From contig JACKIB010000020.1 of NCBI GenBank assembly GCA_020638695.1, positions 19,984-83,983 of the forward strand: a DNA stretch of 64,000 nucleotides, written 5' to 3'. Position numbers and translations under genes: made by a program. Position 1 is the stretch's first letter. Every line of letters begins with the position of its first letter. This DNA is from Planctomycetota bacterium (lineage in GTDB: Bacteria; Planctomycetota; UBA1135; UBA2386). Positions 54,579 to 64,000 of this stretch are shown here, one piece after another. The notes below the pieces were generated by a model that saw only the letters and a list, made by a program, of their open reading frames with translations, was not told the DNA's origin and did no database searches.

Positions 54579-55607
54579 CTAGAGCACCAGGCGGAGCCGC
54601 GGGCGCGTTCCCGCCTGGGCACAGACGCCGCAGCGCGCCTCGCCCGGGAGCACCGACGGCGGTCGATGGAAGGCGGTGCCGCACACCGAGCAGACGCGGC
54701 GCACGAGTGCGATGCGGTGTGGGGCCGCTACCGTGTCGGACCGGACCTCCACCGCCCGCTCGGCGCACAGGTCGACGCAGAGCCCGCAGCCGGTACAGGC
54801 GTCGGGCTCGATCTGGTAGTCGTCGGCATCCGGGCCGCCGACGATGGCCGCGTGCGGACAGATTCGCGCGCAGGCGTCGCAGCCGCTGCACCGGTTCGGG
54901 TCGATGCTCGGCGCATGCAGGCGCGGAACCGCTCCCGCGGCGGGCGCGAGCGATTGCCCCGGGGGCCGCCACGGCGTCGACGCCACGTCCGGAGGAGCGC
55001 GGTCGACGGCGGCGACCACGACGCGGCGCCAGAACCCTCGCCGGCTCATTCCCGGCTCGGATCTCGCCGGTCGCGCGGCGGCGGCCCGGCGGTTCCACCG
55101 CGCCGGCCCGAGTGGGAACACGGCAATCGGCAGCGCCCCCCGTGCCACCAGCACCCGGTTCAGGCGCGCGACCCGTTCCCCCAGCCGCTCGCCCCGGTCG
55201 CGGGGGCAGTCGTCGCATCGACCCGTGCAAACCTCGAGTCGACGCATGCCGCGAGAATGCAGACCGAGCAGCTCCGCGAGCGACACCGCATGCACGCATG
55301 GAGGCCCGCCGACGCGGTCGGTACCCGCGCGCTCGCAGGCGAGGAAGACGCTCGCCGCATCGTGGCCGCCAGCCGCGAGTGCCGGCGCCTCACCGAGCAG
55401 CGCACCCTCGGTGCAGGCAGCGACGCACAGGCCACAGCCGTCGCACGATTCCGGCTCGATGTCGGGGCATCCGTCCACCACCACCGCTTCACGCGGGCAG
55501 ACCTCCAGGCAGCGACGGCAGGACACGACGGTGGCGCGCGCGTGCACGCAGCGCTCGACCAGGATCTCGGGCGGGTAGCCGCTCGACGATTGCCCCCCCG
55601 CCGGCAT
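54579..55607 (-). CDS. cytoplasmic polyferredoxin (NapF-like multi-[4Fe-4S] protein) with a C-terminal Cys4 ribbon
   Basis: Track ORF trimmed to Met162 (MPAGGQSS...). Motifs CRRCLEVCP, CDGCGLCVAACTEGA, CSGCDACARICPHAA, CTGCGLCVDLCAERA and CSVCG...CGVC. No signal peptide. Confidence 0.7.
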   Translation of the reverse strand: MPAGGQSSSGYPPEILVERCVHARATVVSCRRCLEVCPREAVVVDGCPDIEPESCDGCGLCVAACTEGALLGEAPALAAGGHDAASVFLACERAGTDRVGGPPCVHAVSLAELLGLHSRGMRRLEVCTGRCDDCPRDRGERLGERVARLNRVLVARGALPIAVFPLGPARWNRRAAAARPARSEPGMSRRGFWRRVVVAAVDRAPPDVASTPWRPPGQSLAPAAGAVPRLHAPSIDPNRCSGCDACARICPHAAIVGGPDADDYQIEPDACTGCGLCVDLCAERAVEVRSDTVAAPHRIALVRRVCSVCGTAFHRPPSVLPGEARCGVCAQAGTRPRLRLVL

Positions 55608-55632: not shown

Positions 55633-56382
55633 TCACCAGCCGGGTCCGAGCCCGGGCAGATACGGCGCCTCCTCGGCGCTCGGCGCCCCGCGCCGCGGCA
55701 ACGGCTCCACCACCGGCCGCGGCCGCTCGAGGACCTGCGCCAGCACCTCGCGAAGCTCCTCGAGATAGACCGCTGTGAGCGCCGCCAGCCCGGCGTAGAA
55801 GGACGTCTCGGACCGCGCGGCGACCCGCGCGGCGAACGCGGGTAGCCAGCGGAGCAGGTGCGCGTCGAGGAAGGCGGCCGCGGTCTCGAGCGCCTCGTGA
55901 TCACCGCGCCCGACCAGAACAGCGACGAACTCGAGCTGGTGCACGAGGTGGTCGTCCGGGCGCAACCGCCAATCCGGCGCCTTAAGCCCCTGGCGTGCAT
56001 AGGCCCGGCGAACCTCGAACATCGGGCCCTGCATCGCCAGGCCCTCGTCGTCGAGCCACACCGACTCGGACGGCGCCGCACCGTAGCCATGCGTCAGGTA
56101 GATGGCGGCGAAGTCCGCGGCGTGGCGGTCGAGCGAGTCGGCGCCGTCGTCGAGCTCGGCGACGACGGCCGCCATCGACGCGAGGATCGACCGTCCGCGC
56201 TCCGATACCAGCCGGACCCCGAGTGAGTCCGGGAACCCCACCCGCCTCAGCGCGAGCACCGCCGCGCCGTCGAGCTCACCCGCGTGCAGTGCTGCAAGCT
56301 CGTCGAGATCCGCCGAGCACAGCCCGCAGAACCGCCGCAACGGGCCGGTCGTGGCCACCCCTCGCTCCGCCACCACCGCCAT
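55633..56382 (-). CDS. TorD/DmsD-family redox-enzyme maturation chaperone
   Basis: Track ORF trimmed to Met183 (MAVVAERGVATTGPL...). AAIYLTHGYGAAPSESVW and DHLVHQLEFVAVLV match TorD-family motifs. TGATG overlap with the upstream FeS subunit gene. Confidence 0.7.
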   Translation of the reverse strand: MAVVAERGVATTGPLRRFCGLCSADLDELAALHAGELDGAAVLALRRVGFPDSLGVRLVSERGRSILASMAAVVAELDDGADSLDRHAADFAAIYLTHGYGAAPSESVWLDDEGLAMQGPMFEVRRAYARQGLKAPDWRLRPDDHLVHQLEFVAVLVGRGDHEALETAAAFLDAHLLRWLPAFAARVAARSETSFYAGLAALTAVYLEELREVLAQVLERPRPVVEPLPRRGAPSAEEAPYLPGLGPGW

Positions 56383-57044
56383 CACACCTTGCCCTTGCTG
56401 TGCGGGACGAAGACGATCGACGGCCGGGTGAGCTCGGGATCGGCGAAGCCCTTCACCGCCCCCACCGCCTCCTCGCTCGCGGTCATCGCCTTGGTCGGGT
56501 ACTGCTTCGCGCGCAGCAAGTCGATGGGCCCCACGTCGAGGACCCGCATCATGCACGCCATCACGCAGTAGGGCTTGCGTCCCGCCTCCAGCTCGTCGAT
56601 GCAGAGGTTGCACTTCTTCACCACCTGCGCCTCGGGATCCCACTGCGGTGCGCCGTAGGGACAGGCGGCCTCGCAGCGCCGACAGCCGATGCACAGCGTC
56701 GAGTCGATGTCCACGACCCCGTTGTCCGGACGCTTCCAGATCGCACCGGTCGGGCAGGCCGGTAGACAGGCGGGCTCCGCGCAGTGGTTGCAAGACACGT
56801 TGACCTTGTACGCGAACACGTCCGGATAGGTTCCACCCTCGACGTACAGGACCCGCCTGAAGCGCGGTCCGGGTGGCAGGCCGTTCTTGTCCTTGCACGC
56901 CATCTCGCAGGCGCGACAGCCGATGCAATCCACGTTGTTGTGGATGAAGCCGAGCTGCTGCTCGGGAACGACCGGCGTGTAGACTTCCTTCTTGCGTCGC
57001 TTCACCGCCTCTTTCAACGCGGCGCGGTCCTTGATGTCGGCCAT
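56382..57044 (-). CDS. DmsB-like four-cluster [4Fe-4S] electron-transfer subunit
   Basis: Track ORF trimmed to Met71 (MADIKDRAALKEAV...). GGAGGG RBS. Four Cys groups: CIGCRACEMAC, CNHCAEPACLPACP, CIGCRRCEAACP, CNLC...CVMAC. Confidence 0.85.
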   Translation of the reverse strand: MADIKDRAALKEAVKRRKKEVYTPVVPEQQLGFIHNNVDCIGCRACEMACKDKNGLPPGPRFRRVLYVEGGTYPDVFAYKVNVSCNHCAEPACLPACPTGAIWKRPDNGVVDIDSTLCIGCRRCEAACPYGAPQWDPEAQVVKKCNLCIDELEAGRKPYCVMACMMRVLDVGPIDLLRAKQYPTKAMTASEEAVGAVKGFADPELTRPSIVFVPHSKGKV

Positions 57045-57058
57045 GTCGAAGCCCTCCG

Positions 57059-59641
57059 TCAGAGGTCGCGTCGAAAGACGTGGGAACGAGCCGTCGCCAG
57101 GCGATCCCATCCGGGCCGGTGCTCGAGATCGGTCTTGCGAATGTCGCAGAGCACGGTGTTGTAGGCGAACGATCCGGCGGGACTCGGCTCGTCGAGAGTC
57201 AGCATGTCGGGATTGCCGGAACGGTCGACGCCGTCGGCATCCAGGTCCAGCCACGCGCCCTCGTGCAACACCGCGACTCCCGGCATGCAGCGCTCGGTGA
57301 CGTAGACCGGCACCACCACACTACCGCGCGCATTGAAGACCTCCACCGTATCCCCGGTGCGGATCCCGAGGCGCCGCGCATCGGCCGCGTTGAGCGTCAC
57401 CTCTTGCTCGTACACCTCGCGCAGCCAGGAGCAGTTGTTGAAGATCGAGTGCGTGCGCCATCTCGGATGCGGCGAGATCAGATGGAATGGGTAGGTCTTC
57501 GACTTCTCGCTGTTCAATGACTCCCACGGCTCGATCCACTTCGGGATCGAAGGTATGTGATACCCGTAGCGGGTTCGGGTCCAGTCCGAGATCTGCGCGA
57601 GCTCGGTGCACAGGATCTCGATCCGGCCCGAAGGTGTCTGGAACGGCACTCCGTTCTCGATCTGGTCGCGGAACGCGACCTGTGGCTTGTCGAGCTTGAA
57701 CTTGTAGACGCCGCGACTCTTGAACTCGTCCCAGCCCATCTCCACGCCCTGGTGCGCCATCACCTTCGACTGCCACCACTCGCGCAGGTAGGCCTCGTCG
57801 ACCGGATCCGGATTGGTGAAGTAGTCGCGCGTCGCTCGCGGGTTGTAGGCGCGCCCGAAGGAGTCTCCGATTCCGGTCTTGTGGCCGATGCGATAGGCCA
57901 GCTCGGTGAACACCTGGAAGTCGGTCCTGGCCTCACCCAGCGGCTCGATCACCTTCGGTCGGTGGATGTAGTAGTGCCCCTTGTACCAGGGCAGCGCGAC
58001 GTCGTGGCGCTCGAAGTGCGTGGCAATCGGGAACAGCACGTCGGCGTAGAGTCCGGAGGGGGTGATGGTCGAGTCCATGCACACCACCAGCTCCAGCTTC
58101 TCGATCGCCTTCAACCCCTTCTTGACGTTGGTGAGCTGATTGAGCCAGTCCGATCCCTGCCAGAAGATTCCCTTGATGTTCGGAATCACCCCGTCCAGCG
58201 CGTCCTGCCGCGGCCACAGGCCGATCTCCTCGCGCTCGACGTTCGGGTACTCGAGCACACAGTGGGCCCAGCGATCGGACTTGATCGACGAGAACCAGAT
58301 GTTGGCGTACTGATCGTAGGGGTAGGCCACGGCCTCGGCGTGCCATGCCTTGCCGACACCTTCGGCACTGCCACCGAGGATCCCGATGTTTCCGGTCATC
58401 GCCTGCAGGGCGGCGGCCATTCGGTTGTACTGCTCGCCGTAGGCGTTGCGCCCGGGCGACCACGACGCCTTCAGCGCCGCCGGCTTGGTTCGTGCATACA
58501 TGTCTGCGAGCTTGCGGATGTCGGCGGCCGAGACGCCGCAGATCTCGCTCGCCCATTCCGGGGTCTTGGGCACACCGTCGTAGGCCCCGAGGATGTAGTC
58601 CTTGAAGTTCTCCCGGCCGTTGGCTGACCCTCCGGCCCACGCCGGCATGGTGCCGGCGTCCATTCCCTGCGTGAAGCGGTCGATGAATGCCTGGTCCTGG
58701 AGGTTCTCGGTGAAGATGTGATGCGCCATACCTGCGAGCATCGCGCCATCGGTGTTCGGTCTGATCGGAATCCACCACGCATCGTAGGCGGCGGCCGAGT
58801 CCGTGTACTGCGGATCGACGAGAACGAACTTGCACCCGCGCTGCTTGGCGAGGCGCATGTAGTAGAAGGTGTTTCCGCCGTGGAAGCTGTAGGCGGGGTT
58901 CCAGCCCCACATGATGATCAGCTTCGAGTGCGCGAAGGCGTCGTCCTCGTTGCCGTCCTCGATGGTGCCGAAGGTCCAACGCGAGCTCGAGGTCGTCCCC
59001 TGGTACGAGGGGACCGACCACGAGCTGGTCCGGCAGCCGAACATGCCGAGGAAGCGGCCGAGCAGACCCTCGATCTGATCGGACTTGTGTAGCACGCCGT
59101 AGGATGCGCCCGCATAGCTCTGGTCGAGCAACGCGGTGGAGCCATACTGGTTCTTGATCTCCAGCATCTTGTCGGCGACGTACTCCAGCGCCTCGTCCCA
59201 GCTCAGCCGCTTGAAGCGGCCCTCTCCGCGCTTTCCGACGCGCCCCATCGGATAGAGCAAACGCTCCGCGGAGTAGAGGCGTTGACGGTAGGAACGTCCA
59301 CGCAGACACGCCCGGAGTTGCGGCTCCTCCTCGGTGTCCTTTCCGAAGTGCCCATCACGCTGGTAGCGGCCGTCGTCGGTCGACAGCCGCACGATGACGT
59401 CGCCCTTCTTGTGCGCGACCAGCATGTGCCGCGAGCCGCAGTTGTGGGCACAGCTCGTGACCACCGACGTGAGATCGTCGTCGCGCGGGTACGGCTCGTA
59501 GGGAAAGGCGCCGGCATCGCGGACGCCGACGAGTCCGCTGGCGCCCAGCGCGGCGGTACCCGCGGCGCTGGTCTTCAGGAACGACCGCCGCGTGAGGTTC
59601 AGGCGGTCGTCCAGAAAGCCGTATCGATCCTGGGTGCTCAT
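57059..59641 (-). CDS. Tat-exported DMSO-reductase-family molybdopterin (bis-MGD) oxidoreductase, DmsA-like catalytic subunit
   Basis: 860-aa ORF. Twin-arginine signal LTRRSFLKTSAAGTAALGA. Strong resemblance from memory to E. coli DmsA blocks (SCAHNCGSRH.., QLRACLRGRSYRQRLYS..RLLYPMGRVGKRGEGRFKRLSWDEA, IPIRPNTDGAM). Confidence 0.85.
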   Translation of the reverse strand: MSTQDRYGFLDDRLNLTRRSFLKTSAAGTAALGASGLVGVRDAGAFPYEPYPRDDDLTSVVTSCAHNCGSRHMLVAHKKGDVIVRLSTDDGRYQRDGHFGKDTEEEPQLRACLRGRSYRQRLYSAERLLYPMGRVGKRGEGRFKRLSWDEALEYVADKMLEIKNQYGSTALLDQSYAGASYGVLHKSDQIEGLLGRFLGMFGCRTSSWSVPSYQGTTSSSRWTFGTIEDGNEDDAFAHSKLIIMWGWNPAYSFHGGNTFYYMRLAKQRGCKFVLVDPQYTDSAAAYDAWWIPIRPNTDGAMLAGMAHHIFTENLQDQAFIDRFTQGMDAGTMPAWAGGSANGRENFKDYILGAYDGVPKTPEWASEICGVSAADIRKLADMYARTKPAALKASWSPGRNAYGEQYNRMAAALQAMTGNIGILGGSAEGVGKAWHAEAVAYPYDQYANIWFSSIKSDRWAHCVLEYPNVEREEIGLWPRQDALDGVIPNIKGIFWQGSDWLNQLTNVKKGLKAIEKLELVVCMDSTITPSGLYADVLFPIATHFERHDVALPWYKGHYYIHRPKVIEPLGEARTDFQVFTELAYRIGHKTGIGDSFGRAYNPRATRDYFTNPDPVDEAYLREWWQSKVMAHQGVEMGWDEFKSRGVYKFKLDKPQVAFRDQIENGVPFQTPSGRIEILCTELAQISDWTRTRYGYHIPSIPKWIEPWESLNSEKSKTYPFHLISPHPRWRTHSIFNNCSWLREVYEQEVTLNAADARRLGIRTGDTVEVFNARGSVVVPVYVTERCMPGVAVLHEGAWLDLDADGVDRSGNPDMLTLDEPSPAGSFAYNTVLCDIRKTDLEHRPGWDRLATARSHVFRRDL

Positions 59642-59657
59642 ACCGTTCTCCGCGCGG

Positions 59658-60452
59658 CTATCTCTTCAGGTCGGGCTTCGGCCCGGCGGCCTTGGTGAAC
59701 CGCGGATCCGATGCAGTCGGACGCCCCTTCGCCCAGTCCGGCACGCTGTCACCCCCGCCTGGCCATGGATGGCGTGGGTAGGGGTACGAGGTTCGATACC
59801 AGGCGCGCCCACCGTGGCAGCCGTAGCAGACGTCACTCGTGCTACCTGCGGCCTCCTCGATGGCCTCGGGGCGAAGGAAGCTCACCTGATGGCGATTGGT
59901 GCGGATGGCTGCGTGGCACAACAGACAGTTGTCTGCGAACATCGCGCCATGCTCGCTCCACGGGCCGGGGATTCCCATCACCGCGTAGTTGAAGGTGCCG
60001 TGACACATCAGACATGTCTTGGGGTCGACCTGCTTGCGCAGGACGAGCCCGGGCTGCATCTCCGCCGATGACATCCCGGTCTCCTCCACCGGGTCGTTGC
60101 CCTGGTGGCAAGTCGTGCACTGGAGCGACATGACGTTGCGCGCGTACTCGGTGACGAGGTGGCGGCGATGAAACGTCTCTTGCTCGCCGGCGTAGGTGTC
60201 CAGGGTCTGGTACCAGGCGAGAGCATCGGTGGCAGCGAGGCCCGCGGGGGTGGTCTCGCGCACACGGCGGTCGATGATCTCCTGGTGGCAGGCCAGACAC
60301 TGCGCATCAGTGGCGTCATCGATGGCTGGCTTGAAGTGGATCGGGTCCCATCGCGCGCGCTGGTAGCTCGGTGATTCCTCGGCAGCGACACCACCGAGTA
60401 GAGCCGAGAGCGCGATGAGCAACGCGAGCCGTTTCCCGAATCGTCTGGTCAC
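59658..60452 (-). CDS. pentahaem c-type cytochrome (secreted or N-terminally anchored)
   Basis: 264-aa ORF with an N-terminal hydrophobic segment and five CxxCH motifs (CLACH, CTTCH, CLMCH, CLLCH, CYGCH). Its stop is 17 nt from the start of the Mo-subunit gene. Confidence 0.8.
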   Translation of the reverse strand: MTRRFGKRLALLIALSALLGGVAAEESPSYQRARWDPIHFKPAIDDATDAQCLACHQEIIDRRVRETTPAGLAATDALAWYQTLDTYAGEQETFHRRHLVTEYARNVMSLQCTTCHQGNDPVEETGMSSAEMQPGLVLRKQVDPKTCLMCHGTFNYAVMGIPGPWSEHGAMFADNCLLCHAAIRTNRHQVSFLRPEAIEEAAGSTSDVCYGCHGGRAWYRTSYPYPRHPWPGGGDSVPDWAKGRPTASDPRFTKAAGPKPDLKR

Positions 60453-60526
60453 GACATCTGCTCCGGACTGAAAGCGCGGGCACGTCCCTGTGCCCTCGGG
60501 ATTTCCCTACAACGTGTCGGCAGGGC

Positions 60527-60928
60527 TCACTTCGGCGGGGCCCACCCACCGGCCATGCCGGACATACCCGACATTCCACCCATCCCGGACATGCCGCTCA
60601 TGCCCTGCTGCGCGGGATAGAAGAAGATCTGGCCGTCCGGCGAGATCCGGAAGTAGCCCGACATCCCGGACATGCCGCCCATTCCGGACATGCCGCCCAT
60701 ACCCGACATGCCACCCATGCCCGACATGCCACCCATGCCCGACATGCCGCCCATGCCCGACATGCCGCCCATGCCGGACATGCCGCCCATGCCGCCCATG
60801 CCCGACATGCCGCCCATACCGGACATGCCGTCCATGCCGGTCATGCTGGCCGACGCCCCGCTTCCGACGAGCAGGCCGATCGCCGCCGCGAGCATTGCCT
60901 TGCCAAAGGCCTTGCGCATTCGTTTCAT
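60527..60928 (-). CDS. secreted methionine/glycine-repeat protein, (G-M-S/G)n
   Basis: 133-aa ORF with a Sec-type signal peptide (MKRMRKAFGKAMLAAAIGLLVGSGASA). Strong RBS GGGGAGGA 8 nt upstream. Same strand as the flanking operon. By my count 27 of the 106 mature residues are Met, at every third position. Confidence 0.65.
   Translation of the reverse strand: MKRMRKAFGKAMLAAAIGLLVGSGASASMTGMDGMSGMGGMSGMGGMGGMSGMGGMSGMGGMSGMGGMSGMGGMSGMGGMSGMGGMSGMSGYFRISPDGQIFFYPAQQGMSGMSGMGGMSGMSGMAGGWAPPK
60659..60847 (-). repeat. coding tandem repeat, 9/18-bp period (GMS-GMG codon units), 21 triplet units; a second short block lies at 60551-60604
   Basis: The plus strand reads catgccgcccatgcccga reiterated. 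All three frames on both strands give low-complexity repeat ORFs. Confidence 0.85.
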
Positions 60929-60958
60929 CTTCGGTTCCTCCCCTTGCCGGGTTTGATG

Positions 60959-61279
60959 TCAGCGCTCGCGCGCCGACGCTTCTGGATCGGTGTGCCATCC
61001 ACGAATGTCGTAACGCCCGGTCATTCCGGGACGGTCGAACGGCGTGTACCAGGCACCCTGGTCCTCCAAGAATCGGAAGCTGCGCGGATAGGGCGGAGCG
61101 AGCCCCGTGAGCGCCCGCGCGTACCACTCACCGTCGTGATTCATCGTCGACACCACCGGTGCCCCGGCGGGCCGGGCTCCCGGTTGGGTGCCCGCGATGG
61201 GGGTCTCGGCCGCCGCCACCAGCCGGTTCCCGGCGACGGTGCAGAGCACGCCGAGCGCAAGGACCTTCACCGCGTTCAT
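60959..61279 (-). CDS. small secreted protein, unknown function
   Basis: Signal peptide MNAVKVLALGVLCTVAGNRLVAAA. ATG at 61279 is preferred over GTG at 61282. RBS GGGGAGGAG 7 nt upstream, identical in style to the RBS of the Met-rich gene. The mature part contains WYTPFDRPGMTGRYDIRGWH. Confidence 0.5.
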   Translation of the reverse strand: MNAVKVLALGVLCTVAGNRLVAAAETPIAGTQPGARPAGAPVVSTMNHDGEWYARALTGLAPPYPRSFRFLEDQGAWYTPFDRPGMTGRYDIRGWHTDPEASARER

Positions 61280-61454
61280 CACATCGCTCCTCCCCTGTCG
61301 GGCAACCGTGACATCACCGTCTATCCGGTCACGTGCGTGTCGCCCGGCTGTCGATCGGGGTCAGGCAAGCGGCATGCCATCGGCGGGATCGCACTGATTC
61401 GGCAGGAGATCCGGCGATGCATCGGCGCCTGTCACCGCGTTCCGCGGCACGACA

Positions 61455-61471
61455 CCTGACGATCTGTCAGG
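61455..61471. promoter_or_regulatory. palindrome CCTGAC-N5-GTCAGG (core TGACGATCTGTCA), candidate operator
   Basis: Perfect 6-bp arms, about 180 bp upstream of the 61279 start. The 13-mer core matches 11/13 positions of the palindrome at 62351-62363. Confidence 0.3.
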
Positions 61472-61632
61472 CGTCCTCGAGCAGGCCGACCCCGCGCGCC
61501 GGCCCGTTCCCCTCGCGCCCGGACTCACCCTGGCCAGCCCGCCCGACGAATCAAACGCTTGCACTCGCGGGCCTACGAGCGGGCCGACCGGCGAGACACC
61601 GCCGCGATCCATGACAACTTGTCCGTTCGGGC

Positions 61633-62166
61633 TCAGCGCGCCGGCGCGGACGTGTCACCACCCGCAGGGGCGGCACCCTCCGGTGCGGGCGATTCGGTCG
61701 CCGCCGCACCGGGCGGAATCAGAGTCACCCAACCGTCGTCCGCGACGTCGACCTGCCAGCCACCGCGCTCGAGCGCCTCGCGCAACGTGGTGGCAAGAGC
61801 AGGCGCCGAGCTCACGGCGACTGCCGGGCCGGGCGCGGTCCTGACGGGCGGCCGGAGAACCCACCCACCGTCGGCCGCGGACTCGCTGGACCATCCCGCC
61901 CATTGCAGCGCGAGCCGGAAACGCTCGCCGAGGGTCGCCTCGGCCGGGGCCCGTGGAGGCACGGGGAAGTAGTAGCGACTGCCGTCTGGCCCCTCGATCG
62001 AAGGCCAGCCCTTGGCGGTGATCGCCTGGCGGAGCGCCTCGGCCAGGCTCGGTGCGGGCTCGACCGCCCCCGCGGGGTCGGCCGACTGTGCTCGGGCGGT
62101 GACCGCCAACAGCGTGGTCACTGCCAGTAGCACGAGACGAGATCGAGAATGCGCACGTGCGCTCAT
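61633..62166 (-). CDS. secreted protein with three internal ~40-aa repeats, unknown function
   Basis: Track ORF trimmed to Met40 (MSARAHSRSRLVLLAVTTLLAVTARA, a signal peptide). Repeats: LAEALRQAITAKGWPSIEGPDGSRYYFP / LGERFRLALQWAGWSSESAADGGWVLRPP / LATTLREALERGGWQVDVADDGWVTLIPP. Confidence 0.5.
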   Translation of the reverse strand: MSARAHSRSRLVLLAVTTLLAVTARAQSADPAGAVEPAPSLAEALRQAITAKGWPSIEGPDGSRYYFPVPPRAPAEATLGERFRLALQWAGWSSESAADGGWVLRPPVRTAPGPAVAVSSAPALATTLREALERGGWQVDVADDGWVTLIPPGAAATESPAPEGAAPAGGDTSAPAR

Positions 62167-62350
62167 GGGGATTTCTCCGTGGCTTGGGCTCGACGCGGAC
62201 GACACCCGGGTCGAGCGCGTCCTCGACCAGCGACGAGCAAGTCCCGATCCAACGCGTCGAGGCGCGCGACCCGACGCACACATTCAAGGGCTTGGCATGC
62301 CCGTCGTCGCATTGCGCCGGGTCACCGTCGCGCCGAGGGTCGCTGCGACA

Positions 62351-62363
62351 TGACAAACTGTCA
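62351..62363. promoter_or_regulatory. palindrome TGACA-AAC-TGTCA, candidate operator in a divergent promoter region
   Basis: Perfect 5-bp arms. Lies between the 62166 gene (minus strand) and the kinase gene (plus strand, GTG 62479). Same TGAC-N5-GTCA core as 61457-61469. Confidence 0.3.
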
Positions 62364-62478
62364 GAGAATCCGCCAGCCAGATGCCTAGAATCGGAGTCGC
62401 CGGAGTGGGACCGTCTCGGCGGCGCCACCGCGGCGACCGGCAGGTGATGGACGGGCGACGACGCCCACGGGTGCTCGC

Positions 62479-64000
62479 GTGCACTGGCTCCTCGCACATC
62501 TCAATCGCAAGTTCGCCGTCGGCACCGCAGCCGGCCTGGTCATGAGCTCGCTCGTGTTCCTGGTCCTGTACGTGAACCTCTATCGCGCGGAGCTCGAGTC
62601 CGAGCGAACTCGAGCCGCGGAGCAGGTCAACCAGCTGCTGCAGACGTCGCTCGAGAACGCGATGCTGAAGCGTGACCTGGAAGGTCTGCGTGTGATCGTC
62701 GAGCGGCTGGGCCAACAGGCCCACATCGACTCGGTGTTCATCACCGACCGCGGCGGCGAGATCCGATTCGCCAACACACCGAGCCTCCTCGGTGGCCGCC
62801 ATCCGCCGCCACGCGGCGAGCCGTTCACCGAGTTCGTCACCAATGCCGCCGGACGGAAGGTGCTACGCAGCGTCAATCCGGTCGCGAACCAACCGGTCTG
62901 CGAGACTTGCCATGGATCAAGCGCCGAGAACCCGCGCAACGGCACGCTATACGTCGAGTACGATGCCGCGCCCATCGTCGAGCAGGCGCGCCGCACGACC
63001 CTGGTGTTGATGGGCGCGGGCGCGATCGTCGTCGTGCTCAACATCGCGGGTGGCTGGTGGTTCATCCGACGAAACGTCCTGGCGCCGATCCAGCGGCTGA
63101 CAGGGGCGAGCCGTCGACTCACCGCCGGCGATCTCGGGGCGCGTGCGGCGCTGCCCGGGGTCGACGAGCTCTCCGAGCTCGGCCACAGCTTCGACCGCAT
63201 GGCCGACGAGCTGAAGACGCGGATCGACGAGGGCCACCGCCAGCGCGAGTTCCTGCAGCAACTGGTGGACGCGATCCCGGACGGCGTCCGCGTCATCACT
63301 CCGGACTACCGCGTGATCCTGGTGAACAAGGCGTATCGAGAGCAGCTCAAGCTCACCGCCGACGAGGGACTCGACGAGCCGTGTCATGCGCGGTCCCACG
63401 GATCGAGCGAGCCCTGCCCGCCGACGCTGGTGACCTGCCCGGTGCGCGAGCTCCGCGCTCGCGCGGAGCCGGTCAAGGCGCTGCACCGCCATCTCGATCG
63501 TGACGGCCGGGCACTGGATGTCGAGATCCACGCGTCACGGATGCGCGGATTCGTCGACGGTGCGCAGACGACCCTCGTCGTGGAGTCGATTCGCGATCTC
63601 TCCAAGGAGGTGCAGTACTCGCACGACCAGAAGCTCTCCGAGCTCGGCAAGCTCGCGACCGGGGTCGCGCACGAGATCTACAACCCGCTCACATCGGTGC
63701 GCCTCGCGCTGCAGTCGTTCGCGGCCGAGCGCCGCGCGAGTGATGGCTCGGAGGAGCTGGAGGAGTACCTGGAGATCGTCGACCGCGAGATCGATCGCTG
63801 CATCAGCGTGACCGAGCGACTGCTGAAGCTCGGGATGGCGCCGGACGAGCACTCGGAGCTGGTCGACGTGACGACAGCGGTCGAGGACACCTTGAGCCTG
63901 GTGCGATGGGAGATGGGCTCGCGCGCGATCACGCTCCGCACCGAGCTCGCCCCCGATGCCCGCATTCTCGGTAGCGACAGCCAGATCCGAATGCTGACAC
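62479..64000 (+). CDS. sensor histidine kinase (partial, runs off the right edge): TM, periplasmic domain with CxxCH, TM, HAMP, Cys-containing PAS, HisKA
   Basis: Absent from the track because there is no stop in the window. Own translation from GTG 62479, the first start after the in-frame TAG at 62386: VHWLLAHLNRKFAVGTAAGLVMSSLVFLVLYV...NPVANQPVCETCHGSSAENPRNGTLYVEYD...LMGAGAIVVVLNIAGGWWFIRRNVLAPIQRL (HAMP)...PCHARSHGSSEPCPPTLVTCP...LGKLATGVAHEIYNPLTSV (H-box)... Confidence 0.8.
   Translation, partial: MHWLLAHLNRKFAVGTAAGLVMSSLVFLVLYVNLYRAELESERTRAAEQVNQLLQTSLENAMLKRDLEGLRVIVERLGQQAHIDSVFITDRGGEIRFANTPSLLGGRHPPPRGEPFTEFVTNAAGRKVLRSVNPVANQPVCETCHGSSAENPRNGTLYVEYDAAPIVEQARRTTLVLMGAGAIVVVLNIAGGWWFIRRNVLAPIQRLTGASRRLTAGDLGARAALPGVDELSELGHSFDRMADELKTRIDEGHRQREFLQQLVDAIPDGVRVITPDYRVILVNKAYREQLKLTADEGLDEPCHARSHGSSEPCPPTLVTCPVRELRARAEPVKALHRHLDRDGRALDVEIHASRMRGFVDGAQTTLVVESIRDLSKEVQYSHDQKLSELGKLATGVAHEIYNPLTSVRLALQSFAAERRASDGSEELEEYLEIVDREIDRCISVTERLLKLGMAPDEHSELVDVTTAVEDTLSLVRWEMGSRAITLRTELAPDARILGSDSQIRMLT

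What the first reader, a model, noticed from the sequence alone, without database searches (positions are those of the whole stretch)
60527..60928. Secreted protein that is essentially a (Gly-Met-Ser/Gly)n polymer: Met at every third residue, 27 Met in about 106 mature residues
After a canonical signal peptide the sequence is SMT GMD then nineteen GM(S/G) triplets. A single non-repeat island follows (GYFRISPDGQIFFYPAQQ), then six more GMS/GMG/GMA triplets and GGWAPPK. It has no His, Cys or acidic clusters, so it differs from the PcoE/SilE or CopA-type Met/His motifs as I recall them. Met thioethers are soft ligands for Cu(I) and Ag(I), and they are also preferred targets of HOCl and chloramines. 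The protein could therefore be a metal sponge, an oxidant sink or a flexible scaffold. The DNA is a near-perfect 18-bp tandem repeat, so the copy number is probably unstable or polymorphic. Such a gene is also easily mis-assembled or mis-annotated, because all six frames give repeat ORFs.
Basis: partly seen in the sequence, partly recalled or inferred. Interest (0 to 1): 0.8.

Follow-up and report, generated by a model that had tools for sequence, protein, structure and literature searches.

The report
Secreted Gly-Met polymer in molybdoenzyme operon
A secreted, disordered protein with methionine at every third residue is a conserved, previously unrecognised part of a "DMSO-reductase-like" operon found in dozens of sulfur-oxidising bacteria. 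It is most likely the renewable methionine/methionine-sulfoxide substrate of that enzyme.

Summary
The ORF is real and reads as described: a signal peptide, 19+6 GM(S/G) triplets, one β-hairpin island and a GGWAPPK tail.

It is not an isolated oddity. In 69 of 75 related loci with usable upstream sequence, a same-strand GM-repeat gene sits at the same position. The conserved σ54-driven operon is: 107-aa secreted protein, GM polymer, pentahaem cytochrome c, Tat-exported DmsA/YnfE-like Mo enzyme (77–88% identical across classes), DmsB-like, TorD-like, Fe-S protein. A divergent haem-c sensor kinase lies upstream.

Orthologues are usually 300–490 aa. In 31 loci the contig starts inside the repeat, and short-read contigs of this organism differ from the window by one GMT unit. 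The 133-aa length is therefore uncertain.

In the lucinid symbiont Ca. Thiodiazotropha endoloripes, the gene at this position and of this size is annotated "SRP54". [quoted passage not shown]

Best explanation (inferred, about 0.5): a sacrificial periplasmic Met sink that oxidants convert to Met-sulfoxide and the adjacent Ser-ligated Mo S-oxide reductase re-reduces. This is an analogue, not a homologue, of MrpX–MsrPQ. Context gives no support for a metal sponge.

The parts
60527..60928 (-). GM-repeat protein gene: Sec signal peptide, (GM[S/G])19, β-hairpin island GYFRISPDGQIFFYP, (GMx)6, C-terminal GGWAPPK
   Evidence: AF2: repeats unstructured (pLDDT 44-50), island forms a β-hairpin (residues 92-104, pLDDT about 88). 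Orthologues at the same operon position.
60936..60941 (-). Shine-Dalgarno GGAGGA, 7 nt upstream of the ATG
   Evidence: read directly from the sequence
60669..60846 (.). 18-bp (2 x 9 bp) imperfect tandem DNA repeat underlying the first GM block
   Evidence: TRF: 10.4 copies, 82% matches
61365..61379 (-). σ54-type promoter TGGCAT-N5-TTGC, about 85 nt upstream of the 107-aa gene; likely operon promoter
   Evidence: The same motif lies 54-195 nt upstream of the orthologous gene in 35 of 42 loci. No σ70-like promoter or terminator in 59600-62500.
60959..61282 (-). p107: conserved small secreted protein of unknown function, first gene of the operon
   Evidence: 299 homologues, none annotated, no Pfam or NCBIfam match. 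Directly upstream of the GM gene in all loci with enough sequence. AF2 pLDDT 75, no fold match.
59658..60452 (-). pentahaem c-type cytochrome (5 CxxCH; weak NapC/NirT and c7-like hits), presumed electron donor to the reductase
   Evidence: orthologous in 79 of 80 loci
57059..59641 (-). Tat-exported Mo-bisPGD catalytic subunit, DmsA/YnfE-like but a distinct clade
   Evidence: TIGR02166 599.7 bits, below the 777.7 cut-off. 35% identical to E. coli DmsA. Mo-ligand Ser and Tyr114 equivalent conserved against DorA 1eu1, Trp116 replaced by Gly. 77-88% identical in 80 genomes.
56382..57044 (-). DmsB-like four-cluster Fe-S subunit
   Evidence: TIGR02951 196.6 bits, below the 214.1 cut-off; 41% identical to E. 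coli DmsB
55633..56382 (-). TorD/DmsD-family (Nitrate_red_del) maturation chaperone
54579..55607 (-). poly-ferredoxin-like Fe-S protein, last conserved gene of the operon (start approximate)
   Evidence: conserved in 27 of 28 long loci
61633..62166 (-). secreted 177-aa protein with three 'helix + GW..DG....P hairpin' repeats ('GW3') that resemble the island of the GM protein
   Evidence: Homologues upstream in many loci. The protein at the equivalent position in Ca. T. endoloripes is very abundant.
62479..64000 (+). divergent sensor histidine kinase (periplasmic domain with CxxCH, HAMP, PAS, HisKA); runs off the window
   Evidence: Orthologue with a conserved CxxCH in 26 of 28 long loci. σ54 activator next to it in L001, L005 and L093.

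Best explanation
The gene encodes a Sec-exported, intrinsically disordered Gly-Met-(Ser/Gly) polymer. It is a built-in component of a σ54-controlled periplasmic S-oxide-reductase module. Proposed cycle: (1) a haem-c sensor kinase and its σ54 activator switch on the operon. (2) The polymer accumulates in the periplasm, with every Met flanked by Gly or Ser and fully exposed. The repeats contain no other oxidisable residue, so oxidants (H2O2, HOCl/chloramines, peroxynitrite, singlet oxygen) produce only reversible Met-sulfoxide. (3) The co-encoded Tat-exported, Ser-ligated Mo-bisPGD enzyme (DmsA/YnfE-like) reduces the protein-bound Met-sulfoxide. Electrons come from the respiratory chain or periplasmic cytochrome pool through the pentahaem cytochrome and the DmsB-like subunit. 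The net activity is a catalytic, respiration-driven oxidant reductase. (4) The β-hairpin islands, the GW..DG..P repeat protein and p107 may dock or organise the polymer near the enzyme. Shown here: the sequence features, predicted disorder, conserved operon membership, σ54 promoter, sensor kinase and active-site residues. From the literature: expression of the orthologous cluster in a lucinid symbiont. Inferred: oxidation of the polymer, its reduction by this enzyme, and the roles of the islands, GW3 and p107.
For: A same-strand GM-repeat ORF lies directly upstream of the pentahaem cytochrome in 69 of 75 loci with at least 400 nt of upstream sequence. These span Gamma-, Beta- and Alphaproteobacteria and one Kofleriaceae MAG. 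A seventieth locus holds a collapsed remnant. Composition is held at 24-29% Met, 31-42% Gly and 13-18% Ser in nearly all full-length operon copies, in loci of 48-70% GC, with Ser codons from both codon families. In a reduced variant operon (L093) that lacks DmsB and the pentahaem cytochrome, a Met-rich two-island protein still directly precedes a 73%-identical Mo enzyme. In L005 the same slot holds a GM protein with a different non-repeat domain. The enzyme keeps the Ser Mo-ligand and the Tyr114 equivalent of DorA and scores best against the DMSO/selenate and S/N-oxide reductase models. Published work shows that DMSO-reductase-family enzymes reduce Met-sulfoxide, including protein-bound MetO by DorA (PMC7402097). 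A periplasmic Met-rich peptide recycled by a Mo reductase scavenges hypochlorite (MrpX/YedY, PMC4436054). AF2 predicts unstructured repeats. In Ca. Thiodiazotropha endoloripes a cluster with the same gene order and sizes is among the most highly transcribed, together with aa3 oxidase. Its Mo enzyme takes 1.7-4.3% of counts and the gene at the GM position 0.29-0.67% (PMC6872982). The authors found this puzzling for an 'anaerobic' reductase. L001 also carries msrA and an AhpC/thioredoxin-like gene nearby.
Against: There is no biochemical evidence that the polymer is oxidised in vivo or that this enzyme accepts protein-bound MetO. According to a review (PMC13488963), Dms- and Dor-type enzymes are stereospecific (R and S respectively) and mainly convert small molecules. 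One epimer might therefore accumulate. Trp116 of DorA is not conserved. Very high constitutive-looking expression in symbionts would also fit a primary respiratory role with a small-molecule acceptor. Six loci lack a detectable GM gene; one of these has a collapsed remnant and some others may be assembly collapse. The GM protein was not found in the held part of the published proteome, though it has almost no tryptic sites. That the T. endoloripes gene is the GM orthologue rests on position and size, not on its sequence.
Confidence: 0.5

Rival explanations
1. The Mo enzyme respires or detoxifies a small molecule (DMSO, another S-/N-oxide, chlorate, selenate). The GM polymer is only a bystander shield that absorbs reactive by-products or ambient oxidants. 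It is turned over or repaired by other enzymes such as MsrA/B or MsrP, not by this reductase.
For: The enzyme scores best against the DMSO/selenate reductase models. Lucinid studies interpret it as a DMSO reductase (PMC6872982; bioRxiv 10.64898/2025.12.05.692423). DMSO-family enzymes can make chlorite from chlorate, which oxidises Met (PMC9805139 abstract). An msrA gene lies nearby in L001.
Against: It does not explain why the Met-rich gene stays glued to the catalytic subunit even in the reduced L093 operon. It also leaves unexplained why a sink with 25-29% Met would be encoded in front of an S-oxide reductase without being its substrate. No cld, transporter or substrate-specific genes are conserved in the loci.
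Confidence: 0.17
2. Structural or scaffold role. The flexible polymer, its β-hairpin islands and the GW..DG..P-repeat and p107 proteins form a periplasmic tether, gel or condensate. This organises or retains the soluble reductase-cytochrome complex (there is no DmsC anchor). Met redox chemistry is not the point.
For: Hairpin modules are shared between the GM protein and GW3. A further conserved domain is shared between GW3 homologues and other GM proteins. No membrane-anchor subunit is encoded. The protein at the GW3 position is extremely abundant in symbiont proteomes. The repeats are predicted disordered.
Against: A mere linker does not need Met. Strict conservation of Met at every third residue at 24-29% in nearly all full-length operon copies points to thioether chemistry. 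Typical bacterial linkers are Pro/Ala/Thr/Ser-rich.
Confidence: 0.15
3. Soft-metal buffer. The (MxxM)n array binds Cu(I), Ag(I) or Hg in the periplasm, protecting the Fe-S/Mo enzyme or storing copper.
For: Met every third residue formally gives tandem MxxM 'Mets' motifs like those of Cu(I) transport proteins (my own recollection, not tested here).
Against: The repeats have no His, Cys, Asp or Glu ligands. No match to any metal-protein family. No cop/cus/sil/pco/mer genes are conserved around 28 long loci. The hosts live in sulfidic habitats, where I would expect free Cu(I) and Ag(I) to be very low (my own reasoning, not tested). The partner is an S-oxide reductase with no copper centre.
Confidence: 0.07
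4. Collagen-like Gly-X-Y triple helix (X = Met) forming a rigid fibre.
For: Gly is at every third position. There are weak Pfam Collagen and NCBIfam SclB hits.
Against: The repeats have no Pro and almost no charged residues. There is no trimerisation or anchoring domain. The SclB score is 16.5 against a cut-off of 325. AF2 gives no ordered structure for the repeats.
Confidence: 0.03
5. Not a real gene: a chance ORF in a DNA tandem repeat, or the opposite strand or another frame is the one translated.
For: All six frames are open across the repeat. The antisense ORF 60672..60956 also has high GC3.
Against: Only this frame conserves the signal peptide, islands and GWxPP[KQN] tail across loci of 45-70% GC. 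Ser codons switch between TCN and AGY. There is an SD and operon polarity. The gene at the equivalent position in T. endoloripes is transcribed.
Confidence: 0.01

Closest known systems
MrpX-YedYZ (MsrPQ) hypochlorite-scavenging system of Azospira suillum (PMC4436054)
   Same: A small signal-peptide-bearing, Met-rich periplasmic protein is encoded in one operon with a periplasmic molybdoenzyme able to reduce sulfoxides. The logic of the proposed model is the same: sacrificial Met oxidation followed by enzymatic regeneration.
   Different: MrpX is 20% Met plus 44% charged residues. Here the mature protein is about 26% Met, 38% Gly, 14% Ser and about 4% charged, arranged as strict tripeptide repeats with β-hairpin islands. 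The partner is a bis-PGD DmsA/YnfE-like enzyme with DmsB and a pentahaem cytochrome, not the sulfite-oxidase-family MsrP with MsrQ. Regulation is by σ54 and a haem-c sensor kinase, not SigF/NrsF. It is an analogue, not a demonstrable homologue.
E. coli DmsABC / YnfEFGH and Rhodobacter DorA S-/N-oxide reductases
   Same: Tat signal, Mo-bisPGD architecture, Ser Mo-ligand and a DmsB-type Fe-S subunit. It is 35% identical to DmsA and 41% to DmsB. DorA reduces protein-bound MetO (PMC7402097).
   Different: It falls below every NCBIfam cut-off. There is no DmsC; a pentahaem cytochrome c takes its place. The third Cys of the FS0 motif is replaced by His, and DorA Trp116 by Gly. The enzyme is always accompanied by p107 and usually by the GM polymer.
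Met/His-rich periplasmic metal-binding proteins (PcoE/SilE, CusF, CopC-type Mets motifs)
   Same: Periplasmic location and multiple Met at short spacing (MxxM).
   Different: No His or acidic ligands, no folded domain, no metal-resistance gene context and no family match.
'Highly expressed DMSO reductase-like gene' of lucinid symbionts (Petersen et al. 2016, PMC6872982)
   Same: Judged by gene order and sizes it is the same operon: HK, 259-aa hypothetical, 1011-nt 'SRP54', 251-aa hypothetical, 854-aa Mo enzyme, 4Fe-4S. Thiodiazotropha loci carry the operon at 81-82% identity.
   Different: That work treated only the catalytic subunit as a possible DMSO respiratory enzyme. The gene at the GM position was annotated SRP54 and not discussed.

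Membership tests
MrpX (Met-rich peptide X) / MsrPQ system | Signal peptide and periplasmic location | tested here: met
   N-terminal K/R-rich n-region, hydrophobic core and ASA|S cleavage motif
MrpX (Met-rich peptide X) / MsrPQ system | Composition: about 20% Met with about 44% charged residues (PMC4436054) | tested here: not met
   About 26% Met but only 4 charged residues in about 105 mature residues; Gly and Ser fill the rest
MrpX (Met-rich peptide X) / MsrPQ system | Co-operonic with YedY/MsrP (sulfite-oxidase family) and YedZ/MsrQ | tested here: not met
   The partner is a bis-PGD DmsA/YnfE-like enzyme with DmsB and a pentahaem cytochrome
MrpX (Met-rich peptide X) / MsrPQ system | Control by the SigF/NrsF ECF system | tested here: not met
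   σ54 promoter and haem-c HAMP-PAS histidine kinase instead
MrpX (Met-rich peptide X) / MsrPQ system | Rapid oxidation by hypochlorite and enzymatic re-reduction | not testable with these tools
   Needs biochemistry
DmsABC / YnfEFGH reductases (adjacent enzyme) | Tat signal, molybdopterin and molybdopterin-dinucleotide-binding domains | tested here: met
   Pfam PF10518, PF00384 and PF01568
DmsABC / YnfEFGH reductases (adjacent enzyme) | Serine ligand to Mo | tested here: met
   S212 aligns with DorA Ser147
DmsABC / YnfEFGH reductases (adjacent enzyme) | Reaches the curated family score (TIGR02166, NF011566, NF041885) | tested here: not met
   599.7 against 777.7; 426 against 1600; 451.7 against 1675
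DmsABC / YnfEFGH reductases (adjacent enzyme) | DmsC/YnfH membrane anchor subunit | tested here: not met
   No such gene in the operon here or in 28 long loci; a pentahaem cytochrome c is conserved instead
Met-rich copper/silver-binding proteins (PcoE/SilE, CusF, CopC) | Family HMM match, or His/Asp/Glu co-ligands with Met | tested here: not met
   No Pfam or NCBIfam hit; no His, 2 Asp
Met-rich copper/silver-binding proteins (PcoE/SilE, CusF, CopC) | Metal-resistance gene neighbourhood | tested here: not met
   The conserved neighbours are only the reductase module, p107, GW3 and the kinase with its σ54 regulator
Met-rich copper/silver-binding proteins (PcoE/SilE, CusF, CopC) | Cu(I)/Ag(I) binding | not testable with these tools
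   Needs ITC or BCS competition
Bacterial collagen-like (Gly-X-Y) proteins | Gly at every third residue | tested here: met
   GM(S/G) register
Bacterial collagen-like (Gly-X-Y) proteins | Pro- or charge-rich X/Y positions, trimerisation or anchor domain, family score | tested here: not met
   No Pro or charges in the repeats; NF038329 scores 16.5 against 325; AF2 shows no ordered repeat structure
SRP54/Ffh (RAST label of the gene at this position in Ca. T. endoloripes) | NG GTPase domain and SRP M domain | tested here: not met
   No Pfam or NCBIfam SRP hits for the window protein. The label presumably reflects Met-richness only.

The most novel reading that the evidence does not exclude
The 'DMSO reductase' that ranks among the most highly expressed genes of chemosynthetic symbionts and many free-living sulfur oxidisers is not a DMSO respiratory enzyme. 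Its dedicated physiological substrate is a genetically encoded polymeric electron acceptor, the Gly-Met polymer. This polymer would be organised with the GW-hairpin protein and p107 into a periplasmic redox-buffer matrix. The matrix would couple electrons from sulfur oxidation to continuous removal of oxidants, as a protein-based, regenerable terminal electron sink.
Probability: 0.25. Interest if true: 0.9.

Novelty: new variant of a known kind. Interest (0 to 1): 0.78.

Why it matters
If the model is right, three things follow.

- It identifies the native substrate and role of a very widespread, very conserved and very highly expressed molybdoenzyme. More than 570 genome hits were found, at 77-88% identity across proteobacterial classes. 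The presence of this enzyme next to aerobic respiration in lucinid symbionts was explicitly called intriguing.
- It extends the 'sacrificial methionine plus Mo reductase' defence from MsrPQ/MrpX to the DMSO-reductase family, with a chemically minimal substrate design.
- It flags a systematic blind spot. The gene breaks short-read assemblies, collapses in copy number, gets annotated as SRP54, collagen or hypothetical, and is nearly invisible to tryptic proteomics.

Tried and rejected
- Exact-sequence look-up of the 133-aa product found nothing on record.
- Pfam and NCBIfam gave no real family for the GM protein, p107 or GW3. The Collagen, SclB and Forkhead_N hits are compositional.
- Full-text searches for the repeat strings and for Met-rich, molybdopterin, pentahaem and sulfur-oxidiser combinations found no description of this protein or operon.
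- PMC6620896 looked promising (Thioalkalivibrio molybdoenzyme) but concerns SoeABC.
- The AF2 model of p107 (pLDDT 75, pTM 0.35) had no Foldseek match in the PDB.
- My first kinase translation used the wrong frame and was redone.
- The domain shared by GW3 homologues and some GM proteins looks PepSY-like by eye. Pfam gives only one sub-threshold PepSY_2 hit, so I do not name it.
- Contexts of other GM-repeat proteins show the repeat also serves as a linker or appendage elsewhere. Examples are cytochrome c5-like P0074 and DsrE-fused P0053. P0053, and the GM-poor island protein P0039, sit next to a Thioredox_DsbH protein. P0090 has no Mo enzyme within 8 kb.
- No conventional terminator or σ70 promoter was found inside the operon.
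Full report
**Observation.** It has a Sec-type signal peptide (…GSGASA|S), then SMT GMD and nineteen GM(S/G) triplets. The island GYFRISPDGQIFFYPAQQ follows, then six more GMx triplets and GGWAPPK.

The mature part has 27 Met, 40 Gly and 15 Ser in about 105 residues. It has no His or Cys and only four charged residues. A GGAGGA Shine-Dalgarno lies 7 nt upstream of the ATG.

GC3 is 0.88, as in neighbouring genes of this 70% GC window. Differences between repeat units are confined to third codon positions. Ser is encoded by both TCN and AGC.

The underlying DNA repeat is imperfect: TRF gives period 18, 10.4 copies, 82% matches and 10% indels. All six frames are open through it.

**Frame and reality of the gene.** A word-indexed search of 5.8 billion proteins returned 93 GM-repeat proteins. 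A subset shares the signal peptide, the island (GYF[KR]I[TS]PxG[QE]I[FY]FYP) and, in some, the GWxPP tail.

Across orthologues from loci of 45-70% GC, the operon-linked copies examined are 24-29% Met, 31-42% Gly and 13-18% Ser. Gly third positions drift freely. Ser uses both codon families. That pattern indicates selection on the protein in this frame, not on the DNA repeat or another frame.

AlphaFold2 gives no secondary structure for the repeats (pLDDT 44-50). It gives a confident β-hairpin for the island (residues 92-104, pLDDT about 88).

**Context in the window.** On the same strand, with short or overlapping junctions, the gene order is:

- a σ54-type promoter (TGGCAT-N5-TTGC, 61365-61379)
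- a 107-aa secreted protein, p107
- the GM protein
- a pentahaem c-type cytochrome
- a Tat-exported Mo-bisPGD enzyme of 860 aa
- a DmsB-like Fe-S subunit
- a TorD-family chaperone
- a poly-ferredoxin-like protein

Upstream lies a secreted protein with three 'GW…DG….P' hairpin repeats (GW3). Divergent from it is a HAMP-PAS histidine kinase whose periplasmic domain carries a CxxCH haem-c motif. No σ70-like promoter or intrinsic terminator interrupts the unit.

**The enzyme.** It scores best against the DMSO/selenate reductase A-subunit model but below its cut-off (599.7 against 777.7 bits). It is 35% identical to E. coli DmsA, and its partner is 41% identical to DmsB.

Aligned with Rhodobacter DorA (1eu1), the Mo-ligand Ser147 and Tyr114 are conserved, while Trp116 is Gly. 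The N-terminal Fe-S motif reads Cx3Cx3H…C where DmsA has a third Cys. There is no DmsC-type anchor.

**Comparative genomics.** A scan of one genome per species with an alignment of this enzyme found more than 570 relatives. The best 80 are 77-88% identical. They come mostly from sulfur-oxidising Gamma-, Beta- and Alphaproteobacteria:

- Chromatiaceae
- Sedimenticola
- Ca. Thiodiazotropha and other lucinid or tubeworm symbionts
- Thiobacillus
- Competibacter
- Thiothrix
- Hyphomicrobiales
- Tepidiphilus
- Castellaniella
- one Kofleriaceae MAG

The gene order p107, GM, cytochrome, DmsA-like, DmsB-like, TorD, Fe-S is conserved.

Of 75 loci with at least 400 nt upstream of the cytochrome, 69 have a same-strand GM-repeat ORF directly upstream. 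A seventieth has a collapsed remnant: signal peptide plus SMGGMSGWTP.

The σ54 motif precedes p107 in 35 of 42 loci. The kinase with its CxxCH is present in 26 of 28 long loci. A σ54 activator lies next to the kinase where it could be seen.

In an AT-rich gammaproteobacterial contig (L093) the operon is reduced to a Met-rich two-island protein, the Mo enzyme (73% identical), cytochrome c and the Fe-S protein. In L005 the slot is filled by a GM protein carrying a different non-repeat domain. The link therefore runs specifically between a Met-rich secreted protein and this catalytic subunit.

**Assembly and annotation.** Orthologues are typically 300-490 aa with two or three islands, extra 'GxWVW[VMQ]PSG' islands and a GW[NTA]PP tail.

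In 31 of the 69 positive loci the contig begins inside the repeat. Two MAGs from one study have identical termini but 56 against 433 aa (L008 and L031).

p107 is 100% identical to a protein of an Ectothiorhodospiraceae MAG (H6983_09120). Short-read Logan contigs of the same organism end inside the repeat and contain one extra GMT unit relative to the window. The 133-aa, one-island version is therefore probably an underestimate or one allele of a polymorphic array.

In Ca. [quoted passage not shown] I identify it with the GM gene by position and size only.

**Expression.** Petersen et al. [quoted passage not shown] They called this intriguing.

Their supplementary tables show the same gene order and sizes as here:

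| Gene | Annotation there | Share of transcript counts |
|---|---|---|
| 259-aa protein at the GW3 position | hypothetical | 1.1-2.3% (also abundant in the proteome) |
| 1011-nt gene at the GM position | SRP54 | 0.29-0.67% |
| 251-aa gene at the cytochrome position | hypothetical | 0.44-1.13% |
| 854-aa Mo enzyme | anaerobic DMSO reductase chain A | 1.7-4.3% (56 peptides) |
| 4Fe-4S subunit | 4Fe-4S ferredoxin | 0.83-1.15% |

The protein at the GM position is absent from the held part of the proteome table. With almost no Lys or Arg it would be nearly invisible to tryptic proteomics.

**Interpretation.** Two precedents apply. The MrpX-YedY system uses a secreted Met-rich peptide that hypochlorite oxidises and a periplasmic Mo enzyme regenerates (PMC4436054). 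DorA reduces protein-bound Met-sulfoxide as efficiently as free MetO (PMC7402097).

A disordered polymer presenting Met between Gly or Ser at every third position looks like an ideal substrate of this kind. It has no other oxidisable residue and is encoded immediately before a Ser-ligated S-oxide reductase. I therefore favour a Met/Met-sulfoxide cycle driven by respiratory electrons (confidence about 0.5).

Oxidation of the polymer, its reduction by this enzyme and the trigger sensed by the haem-c kinase are all inferred. The main caveats are the reported stereospecificity and small-molecule preference of Dms- and Dor-type enzymes (PMC13488963), and the possibility that the enzyme's main job is small-molecule respiration.

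The rivals are a bystander shield, a scaffold or gel, a soft-metal sponge, a collagen-like helix and an artefact. They are weighed in the rival section. Context gives the metal reading no support.

**Membership and novelty.** The protein is not an MrpX homologue: composition, partner enzyme and regulator all differ. It is not a member of any metal-binding, collagen or SRP family by the tests run.

I found no description of this protein family or of the operon as a unit in the searchable literature. I classify it as a new variant of a known kind (sacrificial Met-rich peptide plus Mo sulfoxide reductase).

A bolder reading is not excluded. The polymer may be the dedicated physiological acceptor of one of the most abundant enzymes of chemosynthetic symbionts.

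Noticed in passing
window 60959-61282 (-): p107 is a small secreted protein (mature part about 75 aa) with 299 homologues and invariant W/Y/P/G positions (…PYPxSLxFLEDQGxWYTPFxxPGMxGRYDIRGWH). It has no annotation, no Pfam or NCBIfam match and no fold match. It is always the first gene of this operon and may be an extra subunit or docking factor.
   Followed up: partly
window 61633-62166 (-); L026:6267-7091, L031:5730-6971: The GW3 family consists of 2-6 repeats of an amphipathic helix plus a 'QGW-x6-DGSxIYRxP' hairpin that resembles the GM protein's island. Many members end in a conserved domain of about 70 aa (…VGRIRKINRIYLVSIV…QLxIRxxDG…). That domain is also found fused to GM repeats (P0004, P0025, P0063, L034:3715-4680). 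The protein at the equivalent position in Ca. T. endoloripes is among the most abundant proteins.
   Followed up: partly
window 62479-64000 (+): The sensor kinase has a periplasmic CxxCH motif (weak Tll0287-like hit) that is conserved in 26 orthologues. It is probably a haem-c redox or gas sensor controlling the σ54 operon. The cognate σ54 activator lies beyond the window end.
   Followed up: partly
window 57059-59641 (-), residues 64-72: The FS0 motif of the Mo enzyme reads Cx3Cx3H, where E. coli DmsA has Cx3Cx3C. This holds in the three relatives whose sequences I read (L001, L005, L093). It suggests a His-ligated or altered N-terminal cluster.
   Followed up: no
L088:2760-2909, L089:2762-2884 against window 60830-60928: Short-read assemblies of the same organism contain SMTGMTGMDGMSG, whereas the window has SMTGMDGMSG. 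Both short-read contigs end inside the repeat.
   Followed up: yes
L093:8001-12987: A variant operon in an AT-rich gammaproteobacterium has a Met-rich two-island protein, a 73%-identical Mo enzyme, a monohaem cytochrome c and an Fe-S protein. No DmsB, pentahaem cytochrome or TorD gene is called in that stretch, which implies a different electron entry route.
   Followed up: partly
L002:2280-5359, L090:3746-6669: Two other proteins from the homologue search sit directly downstream of a roughly 690-aa Thioredox_DsbH-domain protein. They are P0039 (Met-containing, with the island motif) and P0053 (GM repeats fused to DsrE). In L002 an ECF sigma factor follows. This may be a second redox context for such proteins.
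   Followed up: no
L001:9986-10900: In this ENA assembly the GM region is split by frameshifts into several overlapping ORFs (P0033 is one fragment). The pentahaem cytochrome gene is also split. These are probably assembly indel errors.
   Followed up: no
L015:13459-13920 and L015:16510-16869; L034:3715-4680; L058:3655-4476: Several genomes carry additional GM-repeat or island-containing genes within 10 kb of the operon, so the module can be multi-copy.
   Followed up: no
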